Assembly (NCBI GenBank): GCA_000092065.1
Contig: CP000597.1
Length of the DNA stretch: 64,000 bases
Origin: Ostreococcus lucimarinus
Taxonomy: Eukaryota
Strand: one strand, 5' to 3'
Shown: piece after piece, positions 1,769 through 56,616 of the stretch
How positions within the stretch are numbered: the first letter of the stretch is position 1
How the letters are laid out: each line of letters starts with the position of its first letter
Translations under genes and position numbers: made by a program
The notes under the pieces: generated by a model
Told to the model about the DNA's origin: nothing
The model's database searches: none
What the model saw: the letters and a program-made list of their open reading frames with translations, nothing else

Positions 1769-4198
1769 ATGCGCGCGGACGATCCCGACGCCGACGCGTG
1801 CCTGTCCGACGGCGCGCGCGCGCGCGTGGACGCGCGACGCGCGCTCGCGGACGCCGAGAGGGGAACCGACGCGCGACGCGCGACGCGACGGCCGCGGACG
1901 CTCGCGCGCGTCGATCGCGACGACGGGCGAGGCGCGAGGGCGAGCGAGACGATCGCGGACGTCGACGGCCGACGACGGGCGATCGAAGCGAGCGTCAGGC
2001 GGGAGTACGAGCGAGCGCTGCGACGACGCGCGGCGCGGTGCGAGACGCTCGAGCGCGAGGGCGAGGCGCGCGAGCGAGCGACGCGCGAGCTCGAGGCGCG
2101 ACGCGCGGCGGAGGCGGAGAGGTTGAGGACGGAGTTGGAGGCGCGGACGGAGGAGCTGGCGCGCGCGAGAGGAGAGGGCGAGGAGATGGCGAAGGTGAAG
2201 GCGCGGGCGGAGGCGGAGGCGGAGACGCGCGCGCGCGCCGAGGCGGAGAACGAGACGCTGCGACGGCGGTGTGAGGAGGCGTGCGCGAGCGAAAAGAGCG
2301 CGAGGGAAAGCTTGGAAGAGCGCACGCGCGAGCTCGAGCGTTTGGCGAGCGCGATGGAGGCGGTGAAGGCGGATGCGACGCGAGCGAGGACGGCGAGCGA
2401 AAAGGCGAGCGAGCGGTGCGCCGAGCAAGAGGCGCGCGTATTTCGAGCGGTGCGTGCGGCGGAGAGAATGAAGCAGCGCGTCGAGGAAGCGGAACAACGC
2501 GCCAGTCGTGCGCAACGCGCTATGGCGTCGAGCGATGAGTCCAACGCGGCGCACAGTTGCGAGCTCGTCGAGCGTGCGAAGAGAGAAATCACCGACGCGC
2601 GTCGGCGAAACGAAGATTTGGAAACTCGTCTGACGCAGACGACGAGCGAGTTGGAGGCGTTGAGAGAAAAACTCGGTCCGGACATGGAGCGTGCGCGGTT
2701 AGAGGGTGCGCAATCCTATCGCGTTCGCATCGAGGCTCTGACGACCGCGCGAGACGACCTTCAACGCGAAGTCGAGGCGAGGCAGAGCAAAATCGACGAG
2801 CTCGAACGCGCCGACGCCAAAGCGCGCGCGCGGTACGACGAACTCAGGCGTGGAGCGGAGTTTAAGATTCAGACTCTCGAGCAACGCTGCGCGAACGCCG
2901 AGCGGCGCGTGTTGGAGAAGGAGGCGAGCGTGCGCGTGGCTGCGACGGCGCGCGACGCGGCTGAGCGACGGTGCGAAGAGCACGAAAAGATTCTCGAGAA
3001 GTCGTCGTCGCAAGACGTCGTCATCACTTCTTTGCTCGCTAAGCTCGAGCAACGCGTGTGCGAGCTGTATGCCAAAGCCGACAGCGCGGCAAAGCTCATG
3101 CAAACGCAGCGTAAAGGAGACGCGACAAAAATGGCAAAGTTGCAGGCTCGCGTTCGCGCGGCGAGACGCGCGCGAGACGCCGCGAAGACGCGAGCGTCGC
3201 GACTCGTTCGAGAAAATGAAGAGTCCTTGATGCGCATTGGAATCATGGAAGTTCAATTGAAAGATGCCGAGCGTATGATCGAGAACGCCAACCGCGAGTG
3301 GTTGGCGGAATGTAGACGTCGCGAAACCGCGGAGAGCGTCTCGTCCCGCGCCGAGGACGAACTCGGGGAGATCAGAGCGAAGATGAACGCGCTCGAGAGC
3401 GACAGAGCGGTGGTGCAGCGCGAAAACCAAAAGTCATACGCCATGGCGCTCGAGCAAAACGTTCACGCCGAGGAGCGCATCGCTGAATTGACGAGTCAAC
3501 TGGAGGCTTTGAAGTCGGACCTTGCCGCCGCTTCGGAAGCGTTGGCGGCGGCTCAAGTGGACGTGAATGCGGCGACAACCCGCGAGCAGTCGCTTCGCTG
3601 GAAATCTCAGGAGTTGGAGTCGTCGAACGCCAACCTTCAGCGCGCGATCGACGAGCAGCGCGCCGCAATCGACGAACGCGACGGCGTCGAAGCCACCTTG
3701 GCCAAGCGAGAGGAAGAGCTCGCCAACGCCGAGGCGCGCTCAGCTCGACTCGACTGTGAGCTCACGGATGCGAAGATCGACGCGCGACGCGCGAAAGAGG
3801 CGATGGCAAAAATGCAAAGCGAGTTGGACGCGCTGCGAGCCCAGAGACCGGCGTCATCGCTCTCGAGCGAGCTCGCCGTCGTCGAGGCGATTCGCCGCGA
3901 CCTTGCCACCCCCGAACCCGCGAAGACAGTTCCAGGCGCGCTCGCACTGAGCCCCGACCAAGTTCAGCCATCATCCACGACGGCGACGACGACGACGACG
4001 ATCATCGTCGACGCACCGCCGGAACAGAAGGAACAGACTCGGTCGACGCAACCGTCGCCCGCGCGTCGCGCGCGACGCCGCGCCAATCCGTTCGCCGACA
4101 AGGAGAACCCCGACGCCTCTCCCAAGCTCACCGCCGTCCCTCGCCGACAACACACCAACGCCCCTCTGTCCCCGTTATCACTCCTAGGCGTGCGATAA
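1769..4198 (+). CDS. Long coiled-coil protein (E/R/A/L heptad-rich, myosin-tail/SMC-like filament-forming region); function unknown
   Basis: A 2.4-kb uninterrupted ORF. The track starts it at a GTG at 1646; the first ATG is at 1769. It contains long runs such as ELEARRAAEAERLRTELEARTEELARARGEGEEMAKVKARAEAEAE and LEALKSDLAAASEALAAAQVDVNAATTREQSLRWKSQELESSNANLQRAIDEQRAAIDERD. The C-terminus is S/T/P-rich. Confidence 0.6.
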   Translation: MRADDPDADACLSDGARARVDARRALADAERGTDARRATRRPRTLARVDRDDGRGARASETIADVDGRRRAIEASVRREYERALRRRAARCETLEREGEARERATRELEARRAAEAERLRTELEARTEELARARGEGEEMAKVKARAEAEAETRARAEAENETLRRRCEEACASEKSARESLEERTRELERLASAMEAVKADATRARTASEKASERCAEQEARVFRAVRAAERMKQRVEEAEQRASRAQRAMASSDESNAAHSCELVERAKREITDARRRNEDLETRLTQTTSELEALREKLGPDMERARLEGAQSYRVRIEALTTARDDLQREVEARQSKIDELERADAKARARYDELRRGAEFKIQTLEQRCANAERRVLEKEASVRVAATARDAAERRCEEHEKILEKSSSQDVVITSLLAKLEQRVCELYAKADSAAKLMQTQRKGDATKMAKLQARVRAARRARDAAKTRASRLVRENEESLMRIGIMEVQLKDAERMIENANREWLAECRRRETAESVSSRAEDELGEIRAKMNALESDRAVVQRENQKSYAMALEQNVHAEERIAELTSQLEALKSDLAAASEALAAAQVDVNAATTREQSLRWKSQELESSNANLQRAIDEQRAAIDERDGVEATLAKREEELANAEARSARLDCELTDAKIDARRAKEAMAKMQSELDALRAQRPASSLSSELAVVEAIRRDLATPEPAKTVPGALALSPDQVQPSSTTATTTTTIIVDAPPEQKEQTRSTQPSPARRARRRANPFADKENPDASPKLTAVPRRQHTNAPLSPLSLLGVR

Positions 4199-4265: not shown

Positions 4266-5360
4266 ATGCGCACCGACGGAGGCGTCGACGCCTCCGTCGG
4301 CGCCCTCGATCCGATGCGCGATGAGGTCACGCTTCGAACGCGCGTCGTCGCCAGCGCTTGCGCCGCGAGCGTCGCCGCCGTCGTCACCAATCCACTCGAC
4401 GTCATCAAGACACAAATCCAAGCCAACCACGCCGCGCTGGCGCGAATCAACCGCCTGAACCTCGCGCCGTACAGCGCAAAGTCGTGCCCGACGACGTGCC
4501 CGACGACCGGCAGCGCGACGTACATGTGCGCGCCCGAGTGCGCGCTGCCGACGAAGACGCTGGACGCGGCGCGAACGCTGGCGAGACGCGAGGGCGCGCG
4601 AGGGTTCTGGCGAGGCACCGGTGGGGCGCTGTTCGTCGCGCTGCCGGCGGTTGGCATATATTTGCCGTGCTACGACTACGCCCTGCGATGGTTGATCGAG
4701 AGTGGGGGCGTGGGAGAGAACGCGGCGCCGGCGCTCGCGGGGGCGGCGAGTCGAACGTTGGCGGTGTCGGCGTGCGCGCCGTTAGAGTTGGCCCGCACGC
4801 GCGTGTTAGCGACGCGTCGCGGGAGTCCGGGGGTGTATGGACAGAGCGGGGGACGGGCGTTCGTGGGAGCGCTCAGAGAGAGCGCGGGGGGAAGAGGAGG
4901 CGGGATGTTGGCGGGCGCTCGAAACGCGTGGACGGGCGTCGGGCCGACGCTGGCGAGAGACGTGCCGTACAGTGCGATGTATTGGTACGCCGTCGAGCAG
5001 TTCCGGTCGATACTCGGAGGCGACGTCGCGGGACATCGTCGAGAACGAACGACGCGAGAGTTGGCGGGGATCAATTTCGTGAGCGGGTGCGCGGCGGGCG
5101 CCGCGGTGGCGGCGCTCACGACGCCTCTGGACGTCGTGAAGACTCGCGTGCAAATACGCGATATCGCGCCAGTAGACTTTGCTTCTTCCACTGAGACCGT
5201 TCCGGGTGTATCTCGTCGTGGGATCGTGGGTGAACTCGCACACATCGCGCGCACCGGGGGAGTCGACGCGTTGTTCGCGGGGTGGGGCCCCAGAGCCGCT
5301 CGAGCGGCGCCTACGGGTGCGATCGTCCTGGTTGCGTACGAGGTCGTGAAGACGATGTGA
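4266..5360 (+). CDS. Mitochondrial carrier family protein, SLC25A39/SLC25A40 (yeast MTM1)-like
   Basis: It has three carrier signature motifs: NPLDVIKTQIQ, PLELARTRV and TPLDVVKTRVQ. A cysteine-rich insert, SCPTTCPTTGSATYMCAPECALP, sits between helices 1 and 2 and is diagnostic of the SLC25A39/40 subfamily. The start is an ATG at 4266. Confidence 0.8.
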   Translation: MRTDGGVDASVGALDPMRDEVTLRTRVVASACAASVAAVVTNPLDVIKTQIQANHAALARINRLNLAPYSAKSCPTTCPTTGSATYMCAPECALPTKTLDAARTLARREGARGFWRGTGGALFVALPAVGIYLPCYDYALRWLIESGGVGENAAPALAGAASRTLAVSACAPLELARTRVLATRRGSPGVYGQSGGRAFVGALRESAGGRGGGMLAGARNAWTGVGPTLARDVPYSAMYWYAVEQFRSILGGDVAGHRRERTTRELAGINFVSGCAAGAAVAALTTPLDVVKTRVQIRDIAPVDFASSTETVPGVSRRGIVGELAHIARTGGVDALFAGWGPRAARAAPTGAIVLVAYEVVKTM

Positions 5361-40522: not shown

Positions 40523-41824
40523 TCAGCGAAGCTCGCCGAGCGCCGCACGCGAGAAGACTGCCCGTGTGCTCTCGTCGCCCGCGCATACCTCTGACGAACT
40601 CGAGTCGTCGGAATTTTTGCTGAAGTCTAATGGTAATGTCAGTTCTAAGTGTCTCTTCGCGCCTGAGTATTTGAATTTGAAATCAAACGTGCGTCGAGAA
40701 CGTTCACGAAGCTCGCGCTTGCCCACGACGGCGGCGCTCGGCGGCGTCCCGGTGGTTACGACCCAACTCCGCGCTCGCTCGACGTCTCGGAGCTGCATCG
40801 TCGCCAACTCGTCCTGGCTTAAAGGCTGAGCTGTGATGGGTTTATGATTCAACCAAACGTTCACGAGGAACGTCACGCGCTTAGACGACTGCGGCGTACC
40901 GCGCGCGAACTCACTCGGGGCGCCGTGCAAGAACCGTCCGTCAAATGTGATTTGCTTCCCCCACTTTGGCCACGAAACGACGCACTCGGTGATATCACCG
41001 CACACCCCGACGTCGCCGTTTTCGTAATCACAATTCACCTTCGTCGGACGGTTCACGACCACCGTCGGCGTCCCTCCGTCGCAAAAGTACGTCACCGTGC
41101 CGAGTTGCGGATGCGCGTTGACGCCCGCGCCCTCGAGGGCGTAGTCTTTGTCCCAGTGCCACCCGATCTCATCACCCTCATCGATGACTTGCGTCCACCA
41201 CTCGGCGCCCGATTTCGAGGGATCATACCTCGCTCTCTCGTCTTCGTCGCGCGCGCCGGCGTCTCGTTCCGCGCGCGCCGCGGCTTCGCGCGTCGCCCTT
41301 CGAAACGTCTCTCGCGCTAAATACTCGAGCGCGCACCTCGGTTCGCTCTCGGCGTTCACCCAAAACGTCCTCCCACTCGACGTCCCGCTCGTCCTTCTCT
41401 TCCCTCTCGCATTTTTCGCCGTGTGCGCCGCCTCGCAATCCTTCGTCAACCGCCTCGCGTCGTCGTCGTCGAGCGCGTCTCGCCCCGCGAACGTCGTCGC
41501 GCTCGTCGTCTCGTACGTCAGGTATCGGTTCACTTCGCACGCGATTCGTCCGAGTTCATCCACCGCGAGTTCGAGCTCGGACGTCGCGCTCGCGTCGTCG
41601 TCGCTCTCGTCGCTCTCGTCGCTCTCGCTCTCGCTCTCGCTCTCGCTCGTCGTCGCCTCGCGCGCGTCGTTCGCGCGCCTCGTCCGTCGCGTCGTCATCC
41701 GCGCCTCGTCGTCGCGTCGTCGACGTCGCGCGTTCGCCGCCCCGCGTCGCGCGCGCCGGTCGCCCGACGCGCGACGGGCGTCGCGCGTTCGCCGCGTCGA
41801 CGGCCGCCGGGCTCGAGCGCGCAA
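40523..41824 (-). CDS. Hypothetical protein with a 2OG-Fe(II)-oxygenase/cupin-like HxD…H arrangement
   Basis: …IGWHWDKDYALEGAGVNAHPQLGTVTYFCDGGTPTVVVNRPTKVN…ITFDGRFLHGAP…RVTFLVNVWLNHKP…. The N-terminus has an acidic SESESESDESDESDDD tract. The first ATG after the low-complexity region is near 41698. Confidence 0.45.
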   Translation of the reverse strand: MRARARRPSTRRTRDARRASGDRRARRGAANARRRRRDDEARMTTRRTRRANDAREATTSESESESESDESDESDDDASATSELELAVDELGRIACEVNRYLTYETTSATTFAGRDALDDDDARRLTKDCEAAHTAKNARGKRRTSGTSSGRTFWVNAESEPRCALEYLARETFRRATREAAARAERDAGARDEDERARYDPSKSGAEWWTQVIDEGDEIGWHWDKDYALEGAGVNAHPQLGTVTYFCDGGTPTVVVNRPTKVNCDYENGDVGVCGDITECVVSWPKWGKQITFDGRFLHGAPSEFARGTPQSSKRVTFLVNVWLNHKPITAQPLSQDELATMQLRDVERARSWVVTTGTPPSAAVVGKRELRERSRRTFDFKFKYSGAKRHLELTLPLDFSKNSDDSSSSEVCAGDESTRAVFSRAALGELR

Positions 41825-41890
41825 GCGGACCCGAATACCACTAAAGCGTAGCGCTGTATACTCATACCCGAATGTCCGAACATCCGCGTG
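41821..41890 (+). promoter_or_regulatory. Conserved 70-bp TATA-containing promoter module, copy A, upstream of the phosphate transporter gene
   Basis: gcaagcggacccgaataccactaaagcgtagcgctgtatactcatacccgaatgtccgaacatccgcgtg. It is about 90% identical to copy B at 44206..44274. It contains TGTATACTCATA and the CCGAATGTCCGAA motif, and ends 240 bp upstream of the PiT ATG. Confidence 0.5.
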
Positions 41891-43879: not shown

Positions 43880-44205
43880 ATGGGCCCTCCTAGCTTACCC
43901 CCTCCCTAGGTTACCCCCGACGGAGTTATTCTTTGAATACTCTCGGTGTTTTTCCCGCTATTGATAGCGATGAGATTCTCGACAAATTCGCGTTCAGTGG
44001 GGTCTGAAAATTTGCCGTCGCCCACGAGAGCGTCGAATTGCTCCGCCAACGTCCGTCGAATTGCTCCGCCAACGTCAGCGATGGCGCGCCTGTGCGAGAG
44101 AATTCAGACTCAACAATACTTCGCGCGCGCGCTGTTTTGGTTCCAACCGGAGCCGCACGGATCAATTGCACACCGCGTAATCGCCCTGAGTGGTATCGAT
44201 ACCAC

Positions 44206-44274
44206 GCAAGCGGACCCAAATACCACTAAAGCATAGTACTATATACTCATATCCGAATGTCCGAACATCCGCGC
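44206..44274 (+). promoter_or_regulatory. Conserved 70-bp TATA-containing promoter module, copy B, upstream of the PNPOx-like gene
   Basis: gcaagcggacccaaataccactaaagcatagtactatatactcatatccgaatgtccgaacatccgcgcg. It contains CTATATACTCATA, a TATA box, and CCGAATGTCCGAA. It ends about 95 bp upstream of the ATG at 44369. Confidence 0.5.
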
Positions 44275-44368
44275 GATTCCCGCCGCGATTCGCCGCGATT
44301 CGCCGCGACTCCGCGACGCGCGCGACGACGGACGGCGAACGACGCCTCGAGACGACGGCGCGCGCGCG

Positions 44369-48598: not shown

Positions 48599-49397
48599 CG
48601 CCGGAAACCGACGACGGCGACGAGACGACGCGATGCGGAGTGACGATTACAATCGCGTCGCGGCGAGCGCTCGCGGCGCGTCAACCGACGCCGAGGCGCG
48701 TCACGGAATCAATCCGCGTCGATCGTGCAGACCGACCATCGCGGCGCACGATTTCGCGTAAACGTCGTCGAACGACGCCGCGATGTCCGCGTTCAAGGTC
48801 TCGGCGCGTCTGACGCGCCTCGACGGCGCGGCGCCGCCGCCGCCCGCGCGTCGAGCGCGGCGGCGCGCGGCGTCCAGATACCCGACGGACACGCGCGCGT
48901 GCGCCGCCTCCGCGCTCGCGGGATCGGCGTGCGCGCGCCGGAAAAACGTCGTCGCCATCGCGCACCTGGCCGTGAACTCGCGAACCTCCCTTTCGTCGTC
49001 GCCTTCGCCTCGGCCGTCGCCTCGGTCGTCCCGCTCGACCGCGCTCGACCGCGCGAGCTCGACGACGCGATCGAGCAGCACCGCGCGCGCGCGCGCGGTG
49101 ATGGGCGCGATCGACGACGCCGCGTCCGCCGTCGCCGTCGTCGTCGTCGTCGCCGTCTCGTCCGCCGTCTCGTCCGCCGTCGCCGGTCGTCCCATCACCG
49201 CGCGCAGGACGGCGCGATACGACGCGCGCGCGAGCGCGACGGACGCGCGCGACGCCCTCGGCGCGCGCGCGAGCGGCATCGACGCGTCGGCGTCGATCTA
49301 CGACGGCATCGAGCCCGCGATCCGCGATCGATCGTCGACGACGCGCGCGCGTGTGCGGCGAATCGGCGCGGCGCGGCGTCACTCGACGTCGCGCGCG

Positions 49398-50183
49398 ATG
49401 GCGCGCGACGACGACGACGACGGCGACGTCGACGCGACGCGCGCGAACGCGCCGAACGTCGACGCCGACGCGCGCGCCGGCGACGGGGCGACGGAGGCGG
49501 ACGCGGCGCGCGAGCGCGAGGAAAGACGGCGCGCGTCGACGAGACGTTGGTTGGATTTCGTGCACTCGAAGGCGTTCAGAGATGAAGTGAGCGACGTGTT
49601 CGCGCGCGCGAGTGCGGTGCACAGAGACGACGGCGTGATGGATTGCACGGAATTGCAGTTCGCGATCGATTTGCTGCACGAACGATTGCGCGAGAAAGGG
49701 GCGAACGGGCACGCGATGCCGAGGGGACCGCGAGCGGGACGGCGCGAGGCGCGCGAGCTCTTGCGCGACTTTGATTTGGACAGAGACGGCGCGCTGGACG
49801 AGCGAGAGTTTCACTTGTTGTGTCAAAGGTATTTCAGTAGATTAGAGTGGCCGATGTGGCGCGTGTTCACGCGAGGGGCGACGATCGGGTTGGCGCTGTA
49901 CGCCGCGCACGAGCTGTGGATTTCGCCGTTGGCCCAAAACGTGTACTGGAATCACTTTTACCCGAAAATCGTGCAAAGGCTCAAGAAGAGGTATCAGAAG
50001 CGGTACGCGGGGCGCGTGAACACGTTTTTGAAGAAATTCCGCCGACCGCCCAAGAAGGAAGAGCTGCTGGAGCTCGAGCGAATCGCGCAGGAGGAGTTGA
50101 AGAAGAAACGGATTCGAAGAATCAAAGCCGCCGCGAGCGCCAGCGTCATCGGCGGAACGACCTCGGCGTTGGGGATACTTTAG
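49398..50183 (+). CDS. Hypothetical EF-hand-like motif membrane protein
   Basis: DFDLDRDGALDEREFHLLCQRYF is an EF-hand-like loop. It is followed by the TM segment GATIGLALYAAHELWISPLAQNVYW and a basic tail. The first ATG of the ORF (track start 48783) is at 49398. Confidence 0.45.
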   Translation: MARDDDDDGDVDATRANAPNVDADARAGDGATEADAAREREERRRASTRRWLDFVHSKAFRDEVSDVFARASAVHRDDGVMDCTELQFAIDLLHERLREKGANGHAMPRGPRAGRREARELLRDFDLDRDGALDEREFHLLCQRYFSRLEWPMWRVFTRGATIGLALYAAHELWISPLAQNVYWNHFYPKIVQRLKKRYQKRYAGRVNTFLKKFRRPPKKEELLELERIAQEELKKKRIRRIKAAASASVIGGTTSALGIL

Positions 50184-50341
50184 CGCTCGACGTGTCGACG
50201 CTTTTAGGAGCGACGCGTTTTATTTCATGTATTGAAGATATTTCATGTATTGCAGTGAAGGGTGATGAAAGACTGGTCGCGCCCGCCGAAGCGAGACGCG
50301 ACTTCTGGTTTTGAGCGTCGCGCGCGCGAAGCAATCCTATG

Positions 50342-52915
50342 TTAAACGTTGTGCACCACGTACGAGCTCTTGAACGCGGTGGTACCGCTCTTCCGAGACT
50401 TGTGCAACGCGATGGAGCCAACGATGACGCCAGCGAGGGCGACGATGAAGCTAATCGCCGCGAGCGCCTCCGCGGCGCGAATTTCCTTTGTGGACACGCC
50501 TCCCGAGCTGAGACCGTGCACGTGCGCCACCAAATCGGCGTAGCTCGTGCTGGAGAATTCCGTCTTGATGTCGCAGTGGACGTGATACGCTTTGTGGTAT
50601 TGGCCGAGTTCGGAGTCGGTGAAACCAAACACGCCCTTCAAGTTGGCGATGGCGGTGCAATAGTTGTCGTAGGCCCACGTACCGCGCGCGGGCGCGGTGC
50701 GCACGTCGAATAGCGCGTCGAAGAATTGGTACGCATCCGAGAACGTCGACGTACCCTTGGCCTTGACGTCGCCCGCGATGACGCGGTACAACGCCTGGCC
50801 CTCGGCTTGGTCGTCCCCGTACGCCGCGACGGCGCCGCTCTTGAGCGCCGTGTCAATCTTGAACGCGTACTTGATGACGCACTGAGAGTACACGATGCGC
50901 AGTTGCCTTTCGATGCCCTCGTAAATGTTGTGGAGGTCGGTGCAGTCCTTCTGTTCTTGCCCCGAGCGCAACAGCTTCAGGATGGTCTCGTACGGCTTCG
51001 CCGTGTGCGCCGTGCCCATGGTGCCGAACTCGACGCCGCGCTTTTGCGCGCGACCCATGACGGAGTGGTAGCCGTCGCCGATGAGCAGCGCCGCGGCGAC
51101 GTCCCACGCAGCCTCTTGATCCGCAGACTTTTGATTGTTCACGCACACCGTGGAGCTTTGAGCATAACTCAAGTGATTGAGCGCGGCGTGGAAGCCGACG
51201 GCGTCCAACATCGTCTTTTCAATCATTTCTTTGGCCGCTTCGTGATAATTTTTACCGCTCTTCGCGAGCGTCACGGCCTCGGCGATGTAACCTGAAAGCG
51301 GCGTACCCGTAGCCGCATGTTTGCCCGACGACCCCACGGCAACCTTGGTGAATTCGTACTGCGTCATACGCGGGTTCCATTCGTTCGACGTGTACGGCGC
51401 GGTTTCGGTCCACGCCTTGTACGCTTCCACGAAATCAGACGACATGTCATCCCAAGAGGCGCTGACGTCTTCGTTGCGAATGAACGTGTCCATCTCGGCG
51501 ACGATGTGCGCCACGTTCTTGCTCAAGCCCAACGCCTTTGCGTACTGCGTCTTCGCGCTCACGGTGGCTTGCGCGGTGCTGCTGTGCGTGAGTTCTGACG
51601 TGAAGTACGAGCCGGCGAGAGACTTGAGCTCTCTGGCCGGATCCTCGTTCGTTTCCAACGCGCAGTTCACGTAAGCGGCGTCGGAGTACGTGCCGAGCGA
51701 CGCCTCCTTGACGCCGTGAGAAGACATCGTGTTGATGAAGTCGACGACGTGCGTCCTGGCGGTGCAATAATTGCCGTAATCCCAGGTGCCTCTCTGCTTT
51801 GAGATTTCGATGTCAAAGAAGGTATTGAAGAACCCAACGGCACCACTGCAAGCGGTCGCGCACTTACGAAGCATGTCACCGGCGATGACGCGGTACATCG
51901 CCTGACCTTCCGCGACGATGTCGTCGTAGGCGTTGACGGATGCCCCGGACGCGAGCTTCTTGTCAATCTTGTATGCATACTTCAAGATGGATTGCGCGTA
52001 CACCACCCGCATCTGCGCTTCGATGTCTTCGTAGATGTTGTGCAAATCAGCGCACATGTCGTTCGTGCCCTCGATTTCTTGACCGTCTCGTAAGAGTTTG
52101 ACGATGGTTTCGTACGGCTTGGAGATGCCCGCCGCGCCCATGGTGCCGAACTCGAGCCCACGCTTTTGCGCGCGCCCCAAGACGGAGTGATATCCATCAC
52201 CGATGAGTAACGCGGCGGCGACGTCCCAATGCGCCTTCATAGCGTCGGTTTGAGAGCTACCCGTGCACAAGCTGCCGGCACCCACGTCTTCTTGCGCCGC
52301 CGCCAACGCCAACAGCGAGCCTTGATAGCCGACGGCGTCCCAGACGGTCTTTTCGATGATTTCGCGCATCGCCTCGAGCCTGGTTCCGGCCGTATCCGCT
52401 TTCGCGATAACCACCGCCTCGGCGATGTACGCCTCCAACGGATTAGCGACAGCAGTCACGCCATTGATGCCGCGCAAGACCTTCGGAGTGGAAATCCAAG
52501 TCCACTCGTTGGACGTCGTTGCATAGTTGGCGACGGCGTCCTCGACCCAAGTCTTCGACATCGAGTCGTAATTCGTATCCATTTTGTCCCAATTATCAGA
52601 GCTGTTCGTGAACGTGCGAAGCTCGGCGATGATGTGCGCGACGCTGTTCCCGTAGTCGAGCGCGTTTTCAATACTCGTGTGCGCGTTGCCGCCGTTCACT
52701 GATTCCGTCGTCGTACTCAACGTATTGAGCTTGTAGCTCCCCGCCAGCGTCGAGATGTGCGTCAGTGCGTTCGCACCGACGCCGCACGCGCTCATCACCC
52801 CCATCGCCGCGATCGTCGCCCGCTTCGTCGCGCGTCGCCCTCGCGCGCATCGCCCCCGCCTCGCGTCCCCGTCGTCGTTCTTCTTCCCCGTCGCGTCTCC
52901 CGCGCGTCGCGCCAT
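50342..52915 (-). CDS. FEA1/ISIP2a (phytotransferrin)-like iron-assimilation protein with an internally duplicated ~330-aa domain, signal peptide and C-terminal TM anchor
   Basis: There are two homologous halves. The motif HWDVAAALLIGDGYHSVLGRAQKRGLEFGTMG in the first half and WDVAAALLIGDGYHSVMGRAQKRGVEFGTMG in the second are near-identical. A C-terminal TM, AISFIVALAGVIVGSIALH, follows. The architecture fits algal Fea1/ISIP2a-type ferric uptake proteins; the family assignment is from memory. Confidence 0.55.
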   Translation of the reverse strand: MARRAGDATGKKNDDGDARRGRCARGRRATKRATIAAMGVMSACGVGANALTHISTLAGSYKLNTLSTTTESVNGGNAHTSIENALDYGNSVAHIIAELRTFTNSSDNWDKMDTNYDSMSKTWVEDAVANYATTSNEWTWISTPKVLRGINGVTAVANPLEAYIAEAVVIAKADTAGTRLEAMREIIEKTVWDAVGYQGSLLALAAAQEDVGAGSLCTGSSQTDAMKAHWDVAAALLIGDGYHSVLGRAQKRGLEFGTMGAAGISKPYETIVKLLRDGQEIEGTNDMCADLHNIYEDIEAQMRVVYAQSILKYAYKIDKKLASGASVNAYDDIVAEGQAMYRVIAGDMLRKCATACSGAVGFFNTFFDIEISKQRGTWDYGNYCTARTHVVDFINTMSSHGVKEASLGTYSDAAYVNCALETNEDPARELKSLAGSYFTSELTHSSTAQATVSAKTQYAKALGLSKNVAHIVAEMDTFIRNEDVSASWDDMSSDFVEAYKAWTETAPYTSNEWNPRMTQYEFTKVAVGSSGKHAATGTPLSGYIAEAVTLAKSGKNYHEAAKEMIEKTMLDAVGFHAALNHLSYAQSSTVCVNNQKSADQEAAWDVAAALLIGDGYHSVMGRAQKRGVEFGTMGTAHTAKPYETILKLLRSGQEQKDCTDLHNIYEGIERQLRIVYSQCVIKYAFKIDTALKSGAVAAYGDDQAEGQALYRVIAGDVKAKGTSTFSDAYQFFDALFDVRTAPARGTWAYDNYCTAIANLKGVFGFTDSELGQYHKAYHVHCDIKTEFSSTSYADLVAHVHGLSSGGVSTKEIRAAEALAAISFIVALAGVIVGSIALHKSRKSGTTAFKSSYVVHNV

Positions 52916-53030
52916 CGTTCTCTCGTTTCGCGCGCGCGTTCGCGTCGCGTCGCTCGCCGTTCGTTCGCTCGCGCGCTCGTCCGTCGCGGTGTGTCGCCGC
53001 GCCGCCGCGCCGTCGCCGTCGCCGCGATAT

Positions 53031-53070
53031 CGGGTTTATCGCGAGATGGCGCGCCATCTCGCGATAAACC
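53031..53070. promoter_or_regulatory. Perfect 40-bp palindrome (20+20) in the bidirectional promoter between the FEA1-like gene and the DUF4281 gene
   Basis: ggtttatcgcgagatggcgc|gccatctcgcgataaacc. The two arms are exact reverse complements, and the centre is a GGCGCGCC (AscI-like) site. It lies 116 bp upstream of the FEA1-like ATG at 52915. Confidence 0.7.
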
Positions 53071-53296
53071 AATCATTCGGACATTCGTCATTGGGTTCAC
53101 GCGCGTCACAATGCGTCCCGTCGATCTCGCGTTTCGATTGGTTCGCGCGAGATCGAGCTCGTCGCTTTCGTTCGACGTCGGACGACATCGGACATTCGGA
53201 CACGCGATCCTGACGCGCGATTCTGACACACGGATCGCATCGCGCGCGTCGCGTCGCGTCGAGGCGCGTTCGTCGAGGCGCGAGTGCGCGGCGTCG

Positions 53297-54049
53297 ATGC
53301 GAGGGACGACGTCGGCGTCGCGCGCGACGTCGAGCGCGAACGCGCGCGCGATGCGCGCCGCGAGCGCGACGTCTCGAGGGGTCGTTCGCGCGAACGCGCG
53401 CGCTCGGACGACGGCGTCGACGCGACCGAGGCGCGGCGACGGCGTCGAGGCGCGGCGCGCGCGTCGAGGACGGACGACGACGGGACGACGAAGGCGCGCG
53501 CGCGCGGACGCGGGCGCGGATGAAATCGCGTGGTGCTGCGCGACGGCGTACACCGTCGGCGCGGTGGTGATGTGCGCGCGAGCGGCGCGGGCGAGGCGAG
53601 AGGACGAAGACGTCGACGCGCGCGACTTCGCGGCGTCGCTCGCGAAGATGTTCGCCGCGCCGTGCGCGCTGTACGGAATCTTGCTCGCGCGGTCGTGGAC
53701 GCCGGAAACGCTGTCGCTGATGATGCCGGGAAGCCTGGAGCGAGGACTGGCGACGGGGGAGGTGCAATTCGTGCCGACGCTGCGCTCGATCATGACGCTC
53801 CTGAGCGCGCGCGCGACGGCGACGAGCGCGTGGGCGCACTTGCTGTGCGTCAACCTCTTCGTCGCTCGACACGTGGCGTTGAAAACGCGCGAACGAAACG
53901 TGCGCGACGGGCACGCGCCGCCGATCGCGCACACGCTCGTGTTGTCCACGCTCGTCGGGCCGCTCGCGCTGCTCTCGCACGTCGTCACCGACGCGGCGTA
54001 CTACGCCGTCGTTCGCGCGCGCGACGAACGACGACGGGCGACGGCGTGA
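53297..54049 (+). CDS. DUF4281 (ABA4/neoxanthin-synthase-associated-like) small membrane protein with R-rich presequence
   Basis: …FAASLAKMFAAPCALYGILLARSWTPETLSLMMPGS…ATSAWAHLLCVNLFVARHVAL…HTLVLSTLVGPLALLSHVV resembles the DUF4281 pattern (…AWVHYLAFDLFVGRW…). The ATG at 53297 lies within the longer track ORF. Confidence 0.5.
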   Translation: MRGTTSASRATSSANARAMRAASATSRGVVRANARARTTASTRPRRGDGVEARRARRGRTTTGRRRRARADAGADEIAWCCATAYTVGAVVMCARAARARREDEDVDARDFAASLAKMFAAPCALYGILLARSWTPETLSLMMPGSLERGLATGEVQFVPTLRSIMTLLSARATATSAWAHLLCVNLFVARHVALKTRERNVRDGHAPPIAHTLVLSTLVGPLALLSHVVTDAAYYAVVRARDERRRATA

Positions 54050-54261
54050 GACGACGGGCGACGGCGTCAGACGTCGACGACTTTGAAATGTGTAATATAC
54101 GAACGTAACGCGCGCGTCGACCTCGCGCGCGCGGTTTCCGCCGTCGGCGTCCGAGACGCGCGCGCGCGCCTGGGGTTTAGAGAGGCTGCGGCGTCGCGCG
54201 CGCGTCAATTCCCGACGCGCCTCGCGCGCGGCGCGATCGCCGCCGCGAGCGAATCCTCGCG

Positions 54262-55530
54262 ATGTGGACGAGCGATGAGGATGAAAAGCTGTTGGCGCTC
54301 ATCGAAAAGCACGGCGCGCGGCGATGGAACTCGCTCGCGAGCGCGATGGAGACGAAAACCGCCAAGCAGTGTCGAAGGCGTTGGAGCGGCCACTTGACGA
54401 CGGAAATCAAAGAGCACGAGTGGACGGAGGCGGAAGATCTCGCCCTGCTCGACGCGCACGAAAAGCTCGGTAACAAGTGGACGGCGATCGCCAAGTTAGT
54501 GGGCGGGAGAACCGATAACGGGGCGAAGAATAGATTCAAGGCGCTCGTGGACAAGCAGACGAAGAGCAAGCGAAGACGCTACGACGCAAAGGGAACGGCG
54601 CGGCGCGCGATGGTGGCGAGCGAAAGATCGACTCCGGCGAAGCGAGGCCGGAAAAAGCCCGCGCCGCGCTCACCGACGAATCAAGAGGGGATCGGCCGCG
54701 ATGTCAAGCGATCGAAAGTCGAGTCGTCGTTGGAGGAACTCGCGGCGACGCGAACGGGCGTCGGCAAGAACGGCATATCGCCGTCGCTTTTCGTGAGTTC
54801 GCCCACGAACTCGGCGAGCGCGGATCGACAGAATAAGATGTGGCGTCCGAGTTTGTCGATAAAAGTCAACAGCCGCGAGCAGAGCGCGGCGGGCGCGAGC
54901 GGGATGGACGGCTTCAAGACTGGCGCGTCGCTGAGCAACTTCCTTCCAACCAACTATTCGGTAGGGAAGACCCTGAGCTTGTCGTGCGCCGAGCTCGATT
55001 TGTTGCGAGAAGTGCAAGAGATGGTTTCACCGCGCGTCATGGCGAATTCGCACGGTGGCGGAAGCAACGCGAATAGCGCGTTCAATCGTTACGGCGGCGG
55101 CGAGAAATCAAACGCGACGAACGACATGCAGAGCGTGATGAATTGGTTACTCAGCGCGAGACCCGCGGGTGGTGGAGACGGTGCAGATAATAGATACAAA
55201 GCCAACGGAATCGTCTCGAATGGTGACGCGGTGACCGTGTCATTAGCCCCGAACGAAGACGGCACGGCGAACATCCAGCGAGGAACGACGTTGAAGCACT
55301 TCCTGAGCATCAAAGCTGACGCACCGACGCCCAAAGGCGGTAAAGGCGCGGATTCGAAACCGATTTCAATTCCGTCGTTCACGTCGAGCGAGTTGAATTT
55401 GCTCTTGAACGCCCTCGGTACGACACCTTCCGTCGCGAGCAGCCCCGTCGCCGCGAGCGAGTCCGTAGTTGCGAAACCGCGAGCGCGACCGACGCGAACG
55501 CCTCAAAGGCGCGCGTCGCGAAGGTCGTGA
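54262..55530 (+). CDS. R2R3-type MYB transcription factor
   Basis: It has two SANT/Myb repeats at the N-terminus: WTSDEDEKLLALIEKHGARRWNSLASAMETKTAKQCRRRWSGHL and WTEAEDLALLDAHEKLGNKWTAIAKLVGGRTDNGAKNRFKAL. The C-terminal region is low-complexity. Confidence 0.85.
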   Translation: MWTSDEDEKLLALIEKHGARRWNSLASAMETKTAKQCRRRWSGHLTTEIKEHEWTEAEDLALLDAHEKLGNKWTAIAKLVGGRTDNGAKNRFKALVDKQTKSKRRRYDAKGTARRAMVASERSTPAKRGRKKPAPRSPTNQEGIGRDVKRSKVESSLEELAATRTGVGKNGISPSLFVSSPTNSASADRQNKMWRPSLSIKVNSREQSAAGASGMDGFKTGASLSNFLPTNYSVGKTLSLSCAELDLLREVQEMVSPRVMANSHGGGSNANSAFNRYGGGEKSNATNDMQSVMNWLLSARPAGGGDGADNRYKANGIVSNGDAVTVSLAPNEDGTANIQRGTTLKHFLSIKADAPTPKGGKGADSKPISIPSFTSSELNLLLNALGTTPSVASSPVAASESVVAKPRARPTRTPQRRASRRS

Positions 55531-55668
55531 GCGCTCCGACGCATAGTTTTAGCGTGATTGTTGTACTACCACCGTGTGAAATTTCCTCCGAAGACTCGTC
55601 GGTCCGCGTCGCTGGCGCCGCGTCGCGCTCGCCGCACACGCTGACTGTGCGCGGCGTCCCGGGTCACC

Positions 55669-56616
55669 ATGCGCGCGTGGTTTCGCGCGCGCGCGGAGCC
55701 GGTGCGCGCGTCCCCGGGCCCGAGAACAAAAGCACTCGAACTCGCTGCGCGTTCACGTCGTTCGTGCGGTGACGCGCGGCGACGCCACGTCGTTTCGAAC
55801 GCCATCAAGGATCCGAGGCCAACGGAAGGTGAAAACGAAACGAATGACGCGCCGTCGACGAGTAAGAAGTCGCTTAAAGAGCAGCGACAGGCGACAAAAG
55901 TATCGGTCGACGTTCAACGCGCGTTGGCGAGACGAATTTTAGACGCCCAACGCGGATGGGTGAGCCCGAAACGGGCGAGGGAGACGAGCGAGCTCATAGA
56001 CACGGCGCCGAGCGGGGAAGTCGTCGACATCGACGCTGAGGTCGTAGGCGTCATACCCGAAGCGTACACTCGTGTGCGGTGGTTACTCGGGTTGCTCATA
56101 TTACAAAGCACGTCGAGCTTGGTGCTGGCGCGATACGAGGATCTCATCAAGGAGAATATCATCGTCACGTTGTTTTTGACCATGCTCGTCGGCGCCGGCG
56201 GAAACGCGGGAAACCAAAGCGCTATCCACGTCATTCGAGGACTGGCCACTGGAGAGATGGAGAACACCGAAGAGTGCATGCGTAAAACGCTCGCCGAGCA
56301 GTTTCAAGTCGGTTTATTGCTCGCCACCGCGTTGTCGTCCGCGGGTTTCGTGCGCGTGTTGCTCACGTCGCCGCAAGGCTCGGACGATTTGGTCGGACCG
56401 TTCGCTATCGCCACTGCTTTATTTGCGATAGTCACCACGTCCACATGCGTTGGTACGATTCTCCCGTTCGCACTGGTGAAATTAGGGCAAGACCCCGCCA
56501 ACGCCGGGACGAGCGTGCAGGTGATAATGGACGTAAGCGGCGTCATCATCACGTGCACGGTGGCGAGTTTCATTTTCGCAAACGCAGATAAAATTCCAGG
56601 CTTGGTAGCATTCTAA
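55669..56616 (+). CDS. MgtE/SLC41-like divalent-cation (Mg2+) transporter membrane domain protein
   Basis: LFLTMLVGAGGNAGNQSAIHVIRGLATGE matches the MgtE TM signature GAGGNAG.QS. It has 5 TM helices. The ATG at 55669 gives a 315-aa product, and further upstream exons are possible. Confidence 0.6.
   Translation: MRAWFRARAEPVRASPGPRTKALELAARSRRSCGDARRRHVVSNAIKDPRPTEGENETNDAPSTSKKSLKEQRQATKVSVDVQRALARRILDAQRGWVSPKRARETSELIDTAPSGEVVDIDAEVVGVIPEAYTRVRWLLGLLILQSTSSLVLARYEDLIKENIIVTLFLTMLVGAGGNAGNQSAIHVIRGLATGEMENTEECMRKTLAEQFQVGLLLATALSSAGFVRVLLTSPQGSDDLVGPFAIATALFAIVTTSTCVGTILPFALVKLGQDPANAGTSVQVIMDVSGVIITCTVASFIFANADKIPGLVAF

What the first reader, a model, noticed from the sequence alone, without database searches (positions are those of the whole stretch)
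53031..53070. Perfect 40-bp palindrome in a bidirectional promoter, adjacent to CGAATGTCCGA motifs
ggtttatcgcgagatggcgc/gccatctcgcgataaacc is an exact 20+20 inverted repeat centred on GGCGCGCC. It sits 116 bp upstream of the FEA1-like iron-uptake gene and about 230 bp upstream of the divergent DUF4281 gene. A perfect 40-bp palindrome does not arise by chance. It is a candidate binding site for a dimeric regulator, or a cruciform/insulator-like element between two divergent genes. The GATAA and TTATC half-sites also resemble GATA-factor sites.
Basis: seen in the sequence. Interest (0 to 1): 0.5.

Follow-up and report, generated by a model that had tools for sequence, protein, structure and literature searches.

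The report
Young palindrome in algal iron-gene promoter
A perfect 38-bp palindrome really sits between an Fea1-like iron-uptake gene and its divergent neighbour in a Micromonas-like marine green alga. Only one half is an old, conserved promoter element; the other is a recent mirror-image copy found in a minority of natural variants, so the symmetry looks like a fresh mutation rather than an evolved binding site for a paired regulator.

Summary
The palindrome is real but is 38 bp (19+19), at window 53033-53070, not 40 bp. It is the longest perfect palindrome in the window and lies far beyond chance. Its distances to both genes and the two CGAATGTCCGA motifs are confirmed.

I compared ten orthologous loci from marine metagenomes (89-99.3% DNA identity). 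Only the arm distal to the Fea1-like gene, GGTTTATCGCGAGATGGC (53053-70), is conserved, together with the adjoining CGAATGTCCG motif and, in all but L135, the CCAAT box.

The proximal arm (new bases 53036-52) is absent from the closest relative (99.3%) and from all the others except one independent contig. That contig, L013, carries a perfect 36-bp version: the ancestral 18-mer followed by its exact reverse complement. Of 29 over-extended public gene calls that translate this promoter, 1 is palindromic.

The best explanation is a recent fold-back or template-switch mutation that copied a conserved promoter element in inverted orientation. It overwrote 16-30 bp of spacer and removed the adjacent TGGCACGCG box. 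The variant is polymorphic in the wild population.

Perfect symmetry therefore reflects youth, not selection for a dimeric site. No effect on expression has been tested, and the transcription start site is unknown. Interest is low to moderate. The conserved half-module and the dispersed CGAATGTCCGA motif are the better leads.

The parts
53033..53070 (.). Perfect 38-bp palindrome GGTTTATCGCGAGATGGCG|CGCCATCTCGCGATAAACC (19+19, no spacer).
   Evidence: Folded as single-stranded DNA it gives a hairpin of -20.2 kcal/mol, z = -5.7.
53053..53070 (-). Conserved (old) arm. Read in the Fea1 orientation it is GGTTTATCGCGAGATGGC. It is part of the proximal promoter module.
   Evidence: It is present in all ten orthologous loci (L001-L005, L013, L014, L034, L135). 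The invariant positions are GGTTTATC.CGAGA.GGC (alignments A1-A3).
53036..53052 (-). Derived (young) segment GCGCCATCTCGCGATAA, which completes the second arm. It is the exact reverse complement of the neighbouring conserved arm. It replaces ACGCGCCCCGACGCGCGGCGGCGGCGACAC of the L001 haplotype, or ACGCGCCCGACGCGCG.. of the ancestral type.
   Evidence: It is absent from L001 (99.3% identity), L002-L004, L014, L034, L005 and L135. It is present only in L013, as the 36-bp version.
53033..53035 (-). ACC (Fea1 orientation), the outermost 3 bases of the young arm. L001 already has them (..GACACACCCGATAT..). They are a candidate microhomology for the return switch.
   Evidence: Alignment A2/A3. The microhomology role is an inference.
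53069..53073 (+). CCAAT box (AACCAATCA, which fits RRCCAATSR). It overlaps the last 2 bases of the conserved arm.
   Evidence: It is conserved in all orthologues except L135, which has ATGAGGG.
53077..53087 (-). Proximal CGAATGTCCGA motif, in sense orientation to the Fea1-like gene, 6 nt from the palindrome.
   Evidence: CGAATGTCCG is invariant in all orthologues, including L005 and L135.
53188..53198 (-). Distal CGAATGTCCGA motif, in the same orientation.
   Evidence: It is conserved in the 96-99% relatives and in L135, and absent in L005.
53129..53141 (-). Distal CCAAT module CCAATCGAAACGC. In the window, L001 and L013 its 3' continuation (GCGATTTCGAGATGGCACGCGCCACGCGT, 29 nt) is deleted.
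   Evidence: A CCAATC(G/A)AAAC module is also found upstream of the 50-61% identical Fea1 orthologues L006, L009 and L012.
53123..53154 (.). Second, shorter inverted repeat GATCTCGCG-N14-CGCGAGATC. It brackets the distal CCAAT box and sits at the 29-nt deletion junction.
   Evidence: Read.
50342..52915 (-). Fea1-like gene: 857 aa, two internal repeats, and a C-terminal helix.
   Evidence: The architecture matches the description of Ot-Fea1 in PMC4855317. There is no Pfam or PDB hit.
53297..54049 (+). Divergent ABA4-like/DUF4281 gene (250 aa).
   Evidence: PF14108, E = 3.3e-20. The same gene is called in L002, L004 and L005.

Best explanation
The palindrome is a young structural mutation specific to some haplotypes, not an anciently maintained symmetric site.

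What was there before (shown). The ancestral promoter of the Fea1-like gene carried a conserved proximal module. Read towards the gene it is CGAATGTCCG - ATGATTGG (a CCAAT box in reverse) - TTTATCGCGAGATGGC - ACGCGCC. Most haplotypes also carry a second, direct copy of CGAGATGGCACGCGCC about 100 nt further upstream, next to another CCAAT box.

What happened (inferred). In one lineage of this species a fold-back or template-switch error during replication or repair copied the 18-19 nt GGTTTATCGCGAGATGGC(G) back in reverse complement, right next to itself. This overwrote 16-30 bp of poorly conserved GC-rich spacer. It also overwrote the adjacent CACGCG box, so TGGCACGCG became TGGCGCGCC. The copying probably returned at an ACC microhomology.

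Result (shown). The product is an instantly perfect palindrome. It segregates in the natural population as a minority allele in two forms, 36 bp (centre GGCGCC) and 38 bp (centre GGCGCGCC).

Function (inferred). The conserved arm with its CCAAT and CGAATGTCCG neighbours is the functional unit, most likely a binding platform for factors that drive the Fea1-like gene. The mirror copy at most adds a second, inverted copy of that site. If it is transcribed it also adds a 17-19-bp hairpin to the leader. Its perfection reflects recency, not selection.
For: 1. Eight of ten orthologous loci lack the second arm, while all ten keep the first. They lack it whether they are close or distant: L001 99.3%, L002/L003 98.1%, L034 97.2%, L004 96.8%, L014 96.6%, and L005/L135 89% DNA identity over 3.6-7.7 kb.
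2. The 89% outgroups L005 and L135 share the non-palindromic arrangement, so the palindrome is the derived state.
3. L013 (98.9% identity, from a different sample) reads GGTTTATCGCGAGATGGC+GCCATCTCGCGATAAACC. That is the ancestral 18-mer followed by its exact reverse complement. This is the signature of a one-step inverted copy, and it is independent proof that the allele exists in nature.
4. The new segment replaces sequence rather than simply adding to it (17 nt for 30 nt relative to L001). This is a cluster of differences explained by one event, as in the template-switch model of PMC5453318 and PMC8794818.
5. Twenty-nine over-extended public gene calls translate this promoter. Twenty-eight encode the non-palindromic variants (GLSRDGTRPTRAGG.., MARAPTRGGG....TRPDARRRRHTRYRG..). 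One (P0003, MAPSRDKPDI) encodes the palindrome.
6. The half-site does not recur elsewhere in the window, and no palindrome with arms of 12 nt or more occurs at this place in the other loci.
7. The promoter plus the 5' half of the gene is a local diversity hotspot. It shows about 4% differences against 0.3-0.7% in the flanks, with several other indels, so structural turnover is common here.
Against: - Both palindromic alleles are perfect, and they differ by a symmetric CG at the centre. That could be read as selection maintaining symmetry. Slippage in the central (GC)n, or two independent events, explains it equally well.
- Overall, L001 (no palindrome) is closer to the window than L013 (palindrome). 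The history therefore needs recombination, loss, or recurrent origin, and I could not resolve the order of events. The origin of the shared CCCGATAT flank is also unexplained.
- The same lineage (window, L001, L013) has lost the distal copy of the CGAGATGGCACGCGCC element. Gain of an inverted copy could therefore be compensatory rather than neutral.
- No expression, transcription-start or binding data were available.
- The allele-frequency estimate is biased. The 38-bp allele creates an in-frame TAA and cannot be seen in the protein-call assay.
Confidence: 0.75

Rival explanations
1. Evolved operator for a dimeric regulator. A homodimeric transcription factor, possibly iron-responsive or GATA-type, recognises the two inverted half-sites and controls one or both divergent genes.
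For: - The dyad symmetry is perfect and the element lies in the shared promoter.
- One half-site is conserved and contains an invariant GATAA core.
- Related haplotypes and species show short inverted repeats of the neighbouring box: GCACGCG-CCA-CGCGTGC in L003, GGCGCGTG-N5-CACGCGCC in L005, and CACGCGCC-A-GGCGCGTG in L006/L009. Dimer-type sites are therefore plausible in this promoter.
Against: - The second half-site is missing in 8 of 10 orthologous loci, including one 99.3% identical, and in 28 of 29 translated calls.
- The half-site does not recur anywhere else in the 64 kb.
- A TF dimer typically contacts 12-20 bp, not a contiguous 38 bp.
- Forming the palindrome destroyed the more deeply conserved CACGCG box.
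Confidence: 0.1
2. Leader hairpin. If transcription of the Fea1-like gene starts upstream of 53070 (for example near the CGAATGTCCGA motif), the palindromic allele places a 17-19-bp perfect stem in the 5' leader. That would lower translation and make it a natural low-expression allele.
For: - Folded as RNA, the leader forms the full stem.
- In two other window promoters, CGAATGTCCGA lies about 20 nt downstream of a TATA-like box, which is compatible with a position near the start site.
- In Micromonas pusilla, 5' UTR structure is associated with lower protein abundance (PMC4951065).
Against: - The transcription start site is unknown.
- The adjacent CCAAT box would normally lie 60-100 bp upstream of a start site. 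That would place the palindrome in untranscribed core promoter.
- The whole leader is GC-rich, and its fold is only modestly better than shuffles (z = -2.5).
- This reading concerns the consequence of the mutation and does not contradict its recent origin.
Confidence: 0.1
3. Cruciform or insulator-like structural element that separates the two divergent transcription units.
For: A spacer-less 19-bp-arm palindrome can extrude a cruciform under negative supercoiling (established knowledge). The DNA hairpin energy is -20.2 kcal/mol, z = -5.7.
Against: It is not conserved, so the same divergent gene pair works without it in nearly all haplotypes. No other promoter in the window or the loci has a comparable palindrome.
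Confidence: 0.03
4. Remnant of a mobile element (MITE or terminal inverted repeats), or a member of a dispersed repeat family.
For: None beyond the inverted symmetry.
Against: - One arm is orthologous, conserved promoter sequence.
- There are no other copies in the window or in about 130 kb of related loci.
- There are none in viral contigs or in bacterial and archaeal genomes.
- There is no target-site duplication and no internal sequence.
Confidence: 0.01
5. Sequencing or assembly artefact (chimeric fold-back read).
For: Perfect spacer-less palindromes can be produced by amplification chimeras.
Against: An independent assembly from another sample (L013, ENA ERZ23487338) has the same arm junction as a 36-bp perfect palindrome, within otherwise collinear sequence.
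Confidence: 0.01

Closest known systems
Short template-switch (quasi-palindrome / fold-back) mutations, as modelled by Loytynoja & Goldman 2017 (PMC5453318) and Monttinen & Loytynoja 2022 (PMC8794818)
   Same: A stretch of derived sequence is the exact reverse complement of the adjacent ancestral sequence. It replaces the previous bases in one event and creates a perfect inverted repeat or hairpin. The ancestral state is visible in close relatives and outgroups.
   Different: - This case lies in a promoter of a wild marine picoalga and is seen as a segregating polymorphism with two centre variants.
- I did not run the formal four-point model.
- The downstream flank (CCCGATAT..) differs among haplotypes, so more than one step is needed.
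Chlamydomonas reinhardtii iron-deficiency response elements: type I FeRE (FOX1: CACACG, CACGCG; consensus C(A/G)C(A/G)C(G/T)) and type II FeRE with a TGGCA core (FEA1, ATX1, FTR1), as summarised in PMC4259311
   Same: - The ancestral element next to the conserved arm reads GATGGCACGCGCC. That is TGGCA overlapping CACGCG, upstream of an Fea1-type gene.
- A GGCAC(G/A)C(G/A)CCA box about 30 nt downstream of a CCAAT box recurs upstream of Fea1 orthologues that are only 50-61% identical and have different neighbours.
   Different: - These are 5-6-nt motifs in a 64% GC, CpG-rich genome, so chance matches are likely.
- No functional data exist for this alga.
- In the window itself the palindrome has erased both cores, leaving TGGCGCGCC. 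The palindrome is therefore not an FeRE.
- O. tauri is reported to have 'no obvious iron regulon' (PMC4855317).
NF-Y CCAAT box (RRCCAATSR; consensus from general knowledge)
   Same: AACCAATCA abuts the conserved arm (53067-53075). A second box, AACCAATCG, lies 65 nt further from the gene. Both are conserved in most orthologues.
   Different: The CCAAT box lies outside the duplicated 19-mer apart from its first 2 bases, so the palindrome does not duplicate it. L135 lacks the proximal box but keeps the arm.
GATA-factor sites (WGATAR), including the fungal iron-responsive GATA repressors (general knowledge)
   Same: A GATAA core is present in each arm and invariant in the conserved arm of all orthologues. 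L135 has a canonical TGATAA.
   Different: The window and most relatives have CGATAA, with C instead of W. Two GATA cores 24 bp apart in a 38-bp palindrome is not the known arrangement of any GATA factor that I can document. Binding was not tested.
TCTCGCGAGA / DRE-like (TATCGATA) promoter motifs of animals (recalled from memory, not checked in a database)
   Same: The conserved arm contains TATCGCGAGAT, one mismatch from TCTCGCGAGAT. It is a CpG-centred element in a promoter without an evident TATA box.
   Different: These motifs come from a different kingdom. L135 has TATCACGAGAC, so the central CGCG is not invariant. No homologous factor was sought. This is a lead only.

Membership tests
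Template-switch / fold-back mutation product | The derived segment is the exact reverse complement of adjacent ancestral sequence. | tested here: met
   L013 is the ancestral 18-mer GGTTTATCGCGAGATGGC followed by GCCATCTCGCGATAAACC. The window is the same with a CG added at the centre.
Template-switch / fold-back mutation product | The ancestral (unswitched) state is recoverable from close relatives and outgroups. | tested here: met
   L001-L005, L014, L034 and L135 all read GA(T/C)GGC(A/G)CG(C/T)G.. without the inverted copy. The 89% outgroups agree.
Template-switch / fold-back mutation product | A clustered replacement is explained by one event, with microhomology at the switch points. | tested here: inconclusive
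   17 nt replace 30 nt relative to L001, and ACC is shared at the return point. However, flanks differ between the window and L013, the formal four-point model was not run, and the order of events is unresolved.
Dimeric transcription-factor operator / palindromic response element | Dyad symmetry of two half-sites. | tested here: met
   Perfect 19+19.
Dimeric transcription-factor operator / palindromic response element | Both half-sites are conserved at the orthologous promoter. | tested here: not met
   The second arm is absent in 8 of 10 orthologous loci and in 28 of 29 translated gene calls.
Dimeric transcription-factor operator / palindromic response element | The site recurs at other promoters of a regulon. 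| tested here: inconclusive
   There is no second occurrence in 64 kb with up to 3 mismatches, and the 11-mer core is not enriched. The rest of the genome was not available.
Dimeric transcription-factor operator / palindromic response element | Demonstrated binding of a dimeric factor. | not testable with these tools
   Needs EMSA, DAP-seq or ChIP.
Chlamydomonas-type FeRE | Core C(A/G)C(A/G)C(G/T) or TGGCA within the element. | tested here: not met
   The window palindrome reads GATGGCGCGCCATC, with no TGGCA and no CACGCG. The cores are present in the ancestral haplotypes as GATGGCACGCGCC. The consensus is taken from PMC4259311.
Chlamydomonas-type FeRE | Iron-deficiency-dependent activation shown by reporter mutagenesis. 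| not testable with these tools
   No expression data are available for this organism or locus.
GATA-factor site | WGATAR core. | tested here: inconclusive
   CGATAA in the window and most relatives (the 5' W is not met). TGATAA in L135. The GATAA core is invariant.
NF-Y CCAAT box | CCAAT pentamer with the RRCCAATSR context, conserved in orthologues. | tested here: met
   AACCAATCA at 53067-53075 and AACCAATCG at the distal box are conserved in all but L135 (proximal box). The box is adjacent to the palindrome, not part of the duplicated unit.
MITE / transposon terminal inverted repeats or dispersed repeat | Multiple genomic copies and a target-site duplication. | tested here: not met
   It is a single locus in the window and the related loci. 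There are 0 hits in viral and prokaryotic collections. The flanks cgatatcg / aatcattc show no duplication.
Fea1 / Ot-Fea1 family (the neighbouring gene) | Duplicated Fea1 domains, a signal peptide, a C-terminal TM helix and R/K-E-x-x-E motifs (PMC4855317). | tested here: inconclusive
   There are two repeats 46% identical to each other, the motifs REIIE and KEMIE, and a C-terminal helix at residues 809-841. No profile or structure match was available to prove homology to Cr-Fea1: Pfam, PDB sequence and PDB fold searches were all empty, and the AFDB library was unavailable.

The most novel reading that the evidence does not exclude
The palindromic allele may be an adaptive, compensatory cis-regulatory variant. 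Its lineage lost the distal CGAGATGGCACGCGCC element through a 29-nt deletion. Inverted duplication of the remaining proximal element would then have rebuilt a two-site (now dyad) enhancer, or a leader hairpin. Either would retune iron-responsive expression of the Fea1-like uptake protein in a subpopulation of a globally abundant picoalga. That would be a natural example of template switching creating a functional regulatory site in one step, within a locus that is itself a diversity hotspot.
Probability: 0.08. Interest if true: 0.5.

Novelty: new member of a known kind. Interest (0 to 1): 0.22.

Why it matters
For the scan, this case is a caution. A statistically impossible-looking perfect palindrome in a promoter can be a one-step mutation only a few generations 'old' in evolutionary terms. 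Comparison with near-identical haplotypes is what distinguishes that from a functional dyad.

For algal biology, the useful outputs are three:
- A conserved promoter module of the Fea1-type iron-uptake gene: CCAAT box, CGAATGTCCG, and TTTATCGCGAGATGGC(A)CGCG. A related CCAAT...GGCACRCRCCA module is shared with distant orthologues.
- The dispersed, orientation-consistent CGAATGTCCGA motif.
- Three or more natural promoter alleles (ancestral, L001-type, palindromic). These form a ready-made allelic series for testing iron-responsive regulation in Mamiellophyceae, where no iron regulon or regulator is known.

Tried and rejected
- **Exact look-up of the window's Fea1-like protein in public assemblies.** It is not on record. 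I found orthologues by homology instead.
- **JGI metagenome scan with the 16-mer TTTATCGCGAGATGGC.** The pattern was too short for that collection. Only L034 was a true orthologue.
- **Viral-contig scans for both palindrome versions and a prokaryote-genome scan.** All returned 0 hits.
- **Rfam on the whole window.** No match.
- **Bacterial promoter/terminator scan of the region.** Irrelevant for a eukaryote and empty.
- **Confirming 'Fea1-like'.** Pfam gave no hit, PDB sequence search none, and the AlphaFold model (pLDDT 77) searched against PDB with Foldseek gave nothing significant. AFDB was unavailable.
- **Literature searches for Micromonas/Ostreococcus promoter motifs or transcription-start data.** Nothing specific was found.
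- **Is the conserved block coding, as an N-terminal extension of the protein?** Some haplotypes keep an open frame through it, so I considered this. I rejected it because the frame is broken by a 14-nt (window) or 10-nt (L013) length difference and by an in-frame TAA in the window. The long 'proteins' are over-extensions by a prokaryotic gene caller.
- **CACGCG and TGGCA as evidence for iron regulation.** I kept these only as a lead, because such short motifs are frequent in this CpG-rich sequence.
- **Full order of events among the ancestral, L001, window and L013 haplotypes.** I tried to reconstruct it and could not resolve it.
Full report
**1. The observation**

Window 53033-53070 reads GGTTTATCGCGAGATGGCG|CGCCATCTCGCGATAAACC. 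This is a perfect palindrome of 19+19 = 38 bp with no spacer. The next bases out, g53032 and a53071, do not pair.

It is the longest perfect palindrome in the 64-kb window. The runner-up has 14-nt arms and the rest are CG-rich low-complexity runs. In 200 second-order Markov simulations of the window the longest arm ranged from 8 to 15. The 19-mer half-site with up to 3 mismatches occurs only at these two places, against 0.04 expected. As single-stranded DNA it folds into the expected hairpin (-20.2 kcal/mol, z = -5.7).

**2. Context**

The sequence is about 64% GC and CpG-rich. The window carries nuclear RbcS genes, a PHO4 transporter, a Myb gene and an ABA4-like gene. Its closest relatives all come from marine metagenomes, many from Tara Oceans. 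I take the source to be a Micromonas-like green picoalga. This is an inference, because no named sequence was matched.

The gene on the minus strand (50342..52915, 857 aa) has these features:
- two internal repeats that are 46% identical to each other;
- R/K-E-x-x-E motifs (REIIE, KEMIE);
- a C-terminal helix.

This is the architecture described for Ot-Fea1 in Ostreococcus tauri (PMC4855317). Pfam, PDB sequence and PDB fold searches gave nothing, so 'Fea1-like' is consistent but not formally proven.

The divergent gene is ABA4-like/DUF4281 (PF14108, E = 3e-20), with its ATG at about 53297. The ATG-to-ATG spacer is about 381 bp. The palindrome lies 117 nt from the Fea1-like ATG and 226 nt from the other ATG.

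Both CGAATGTCCGA motifs are there (53077-87 and 53188-98, minus strand). The window has five exact copies against 0.16 expected.

**3. Comparison with orthologous loci**

The homology search found 44 relatives. I fetched the DNA around 12 of them, and one more orthologue came from a DNA scan.

Ten loci are collinear with the window, with the HSP20, MgtE, Myb and ABA4-like genes upstream of Fea1 wherever the contig reaches that far. Their DNA identity over 3.6-7.7 kb is:

| Locus | DNA identity to window |
|---|---|
| L001 | 99.3% |
| L013 | 98.9% |
| L002, L003 | 98.1% |
| L034 | 97.2% |
| L004 | 96.8% |
| L014 | 96.6% |
| L005, L135 | 89% |

Alignments A1-A3, read in the Fea1 orientation, show the following.
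- The block ATGACGAATGTCCG(A)ATGATTGGTTTATCGCGAGATGGC is essentially invariant. The invariant positions within the arm are GGTTTATC.CGAGA.GGC.
- What follows the block is not conserved.
  - Most haplotypes and both 89% outgroups continue with (A/G)CG(C/T)G.. and then a GC-rich spacer. An example is GATGGCACGCGCCCGACGCGCGCCGGCGG.
  - L001 has a longer variant, ..GCGGCGGCGACACACCCGATATCGCGG.
- Only the window continues with GCGCCATCTCGCGATAA-ACC. Only L013 continues with GCCATCTCGCGATAA-ACC.
- L013:2989-3024 is a perfect 36-bp palindrome. It is exactly the ancestral 18-mer followed by its reverse complement.

The arm at window 53053-53070 is therefore old and conserved. The segment 53036-53052 is new.

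**4. Frequency in the population**

Public prokaryote-style gene calls often over-extend this ORF upstream through the promoter, so their N-termini translate the site. Of 29 such calls in five 90% clusters, 28 encode non-palindromic variants and one (P0003, which is L013) encodes the palindrome, with N-terminus MAPSRDKPDI.

There is a caveat. The 38-bp allele puts a TAA in that frame, so this assay cannot see it. Thirteen calls that start at the real ATG are uninformative. Two of them (L001 and L014) were checked at the DNA level and lack the palindrome.

The palindrome is therefore a real, independently observed minority allele.

**5. Origin**

A derived segment that is the exact reverse complement of the adjacent ancestral sequence, and that replaces rather than merely adds bases, is the signature of a short template-switch or fold-back mutation. 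Such events are known to create perfect inverted repeats in a single step (PMC5453318, PMC8794818). The ACC shared with L001 at the outer end of the new arm is a plausible microhomology for the return switch.

The 36- and 38-bp forms differ by a CG at the centre (GGCGCC against GGCGCGCC). This could come from slippage. It could also come from independent events on GGC-A and GGC-G backgrounds, since L005 and L135 have the G.

I could not resolve the full order of events:
- L001 is closer to the window overall than L013 is.
- The three share a 29-nt deletion and an extra A.
- The flanks after CCCGATAT differ.

Recombination, loss or recurrence is needed to explain this. The origin is an inference, not a demonstration.

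**6. What the conserved part is**

Most haplotypes, including the 89% relatives L005 and L135, carry a second, direct copy of the element: GCGATTTCGAGATGGCACGCGCCACGCG. It lies just downstream of a distal CCAAT box (AACCAATCGAAACGCG). The window, L001 and L013 have lost it through a 29-nt deletion.

A similar module stands about 200-260 nt upstream of Fea1 orthologues that are only 50-61% identical and sit among different neighbouring genes (L006, L009, L012):
- CCAATCAAAACGCGGGAATTTT..ACACGCGCCAGGCGCGTG in L006/L009;
- CCAATCAAAACACTGGAATTC..GGCACACACCACGG in L012.

The module therefore belongs to the Fea1 gene rather than to its divergent neighbour.

The box GATGGCACGCGCC contains TGGCA and CACGCG. 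These are the cores of the type II and type I iron-deficiency elements of Chlamydomonas (FEA1/ATX1/FTR1 and FOX1; PMC4259311). These are 5-6-nt strings in a CpG-rich genome, so I treat this only as a lead.

Formation of the palindrome erased these cores in the window, leaving TGGCGCGCC. The window allele therefore lacks both copies.

The CCAAT box AACCAATCA overlaps the conserved arm by two bases and was not duplicated. In the window it is CGATAA, which does not fit WGATAR.

**7. The CGAATGTCCGA motif**

All five window copies are intergenic and in sense orientation to the next gene downstream. Their positions are:
- -172 and -283 from the Fea1-like ATG;
- -274 from a PHO4 phosphate transporter;
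- -115 from a CREG-like gene;
- between two divergent RbcS genes.

The PHO4 and CREG copies sit in a roughly 70-nt direct repeat with a TATA-like TATATAC about 20 nt upstream. The motif may therefore lie near transcription starts (inference).

If that holds for the Fea1-like gene, the palindrome would be transcribed and would form a 17-19-bp stem in the leader. In M. pusilla, 5' UTR structure goes with lower protein levels (PMC4951065). The transcription start is unknown, so this remains a rival or add-on hypothesis about the consequence of the mutation, not its origin.

**8. Dispersed repeat?**

I found no other copies in any of the following:
- the window;
- about 130 kb of related loci;
- viral contigs;
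- one genome per bacterial and archaeal species.

My JGI metagenome scan used a 16-mer that was too short. It returned only chance hits plus one orthologue, so a genome-wide count for the source organism is still missing.

**9. Verdict**

It is not chance in the sense of random sequence.

The best-supported explanation is a young, polymorphic inverted duplication of one conserved promoter element (confidence about 0.75). It is not an evolved dyad site for a dimeric regulator (about 0.1) and not a cruciform insulator (about 0.03).

It is a new instance of a known mutational kind. Interest is low to moderate. The conserved Fea1 promoter module, the CGAATGTCCGA motif and the natural allelic series are the parts worth following up.

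Noticed in passing
window 37545-37555, 41869-41879, 44254-44264 (+); 53077-53087, 53188-53198 (-): CGAATGTCCGA occurs 5 times exactly, against 0.16 expected. Every copy is intergenic and in sense orientation to the next downstream gene: RbcS, the PHO4 phosphate transporter, a CREG-like gene, and the Fea1-like gene (twice). It looks like a dispersed promoter or transcription-start-proximal motif of this genome. It was not found in the 50-61% identical Fea1 loci L006-L012.
   Followed up: partly
window about 41820-41890 and about 44205-44275 (+): A roughly 70-nt direct repeat, GCAAGCGGACCCRAATACCACTAAAGCRTAG..CTRTATACTCATAYCCGAATGTCCGAACATCCGCG. The two copies lie 2385 bp apart and flank the PHO4 gene. 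One is upstream of PHO4 and one is upstream of the CREG-like gene. Each has a TATA-like box about 20 nt before the motif. There is no Rfam match.
   Followed up: partly
L003:4055-4105, L005:3739-3790, L006:3741-3790, L009:3742-3790, L012:3655-3705: A CCAATC(G/A)AAAC..GGAATT/GCGATTT..GGCAC(G/A)C(G/A)CCA module lies upstream of Fea1 orthologues from lineages that are only 50-61% identical in protein and have different neighbouring genes. In several of them the CACGCGCC box forms a short inverted repeat with a nearby GGCGCGTG. The cores resemble the Chlamydomonas FeRE cores TGGCA and CACGCG.
   Followed up: partly
window 53123-53154, compared with L003:4030-4110: The window, L001 and L013 share a 29-nt deletion. 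It removes the distal CGAGATGGCACGCGCCACGCG element and leaves a 9+9 inverted repeat (GATCTCGCG..CGCGAGATC) around the distal CCAAT box.
   Followed up: partly
window about 51700-53200 (promoter plus the 5' half of the Fea1-like gene), compared with the flanks 49000-51700 and 53300-56500: This is a local diversity hotspot among near-identical haplotypes. The promoter and the first Fea1 repeat show about 4% differences (68 per 1600 columns against L003). The neighbouring genes and the second repeat show 0.3-0.7%. This could reflect diversifying or balancing selection, or introgression at the first domain.
   Followed up: no
window 53090-53094: A window-specific C-to-A change turns ACCCCATGACG into ACCCAATGACG. 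This creates a third CCAAT box (ATTGG on the plus strand) between the two conserved ones. All relatives have CCCCAT, or GCTAT/GCGAT.
   Followed up: no
proteins P0002-P0008, P0076, P0078, P0111 etc. (public clusters): Prokaryote-style gene calling on these eukaryotic metagenome contigs extends the Fea1-like ORF by 43-298 codons through the GC-rich promoter, and even through the antisense of the ABA4-like gene. The resulting 900-1150-aa 'proteins' in public collections are artefacts. Their N-termini were nevertheless useful as a read-out of promoter haplotypes.
   Followed up: yes
window 36616-37014 (-), 38235-38633 (+), 39831-40364 (+): There are three RuBisCO small-subunit gene copies within 4 kb (PF00101, E about 1e-39 each). 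Two of them form a divergent pair.
   Followed up: no
L034:1-1594 compared with L034:11145-12740: In the JGI contig Ga0209666_1001654, the first 1.6 kb is a 99.6% reverse-complement match to window sequence that L034:11145 onward matches in forward orientation. This is either an inverted duplication about 9.5 kb apart or a chimeric metagenome assembly.
   Followed up: no
window 4273-4300: The second-longest perfect palindrome in the window, CCGACGGAGGCGTCGACGCCTCCGTCGG (14+14). It lies at the boundary between ORF 1769..4198 (+) and ORF 4266..5360 (+). In shuffles, an arm of 14 or more occurred in 4 of 200.
   Followed up: no
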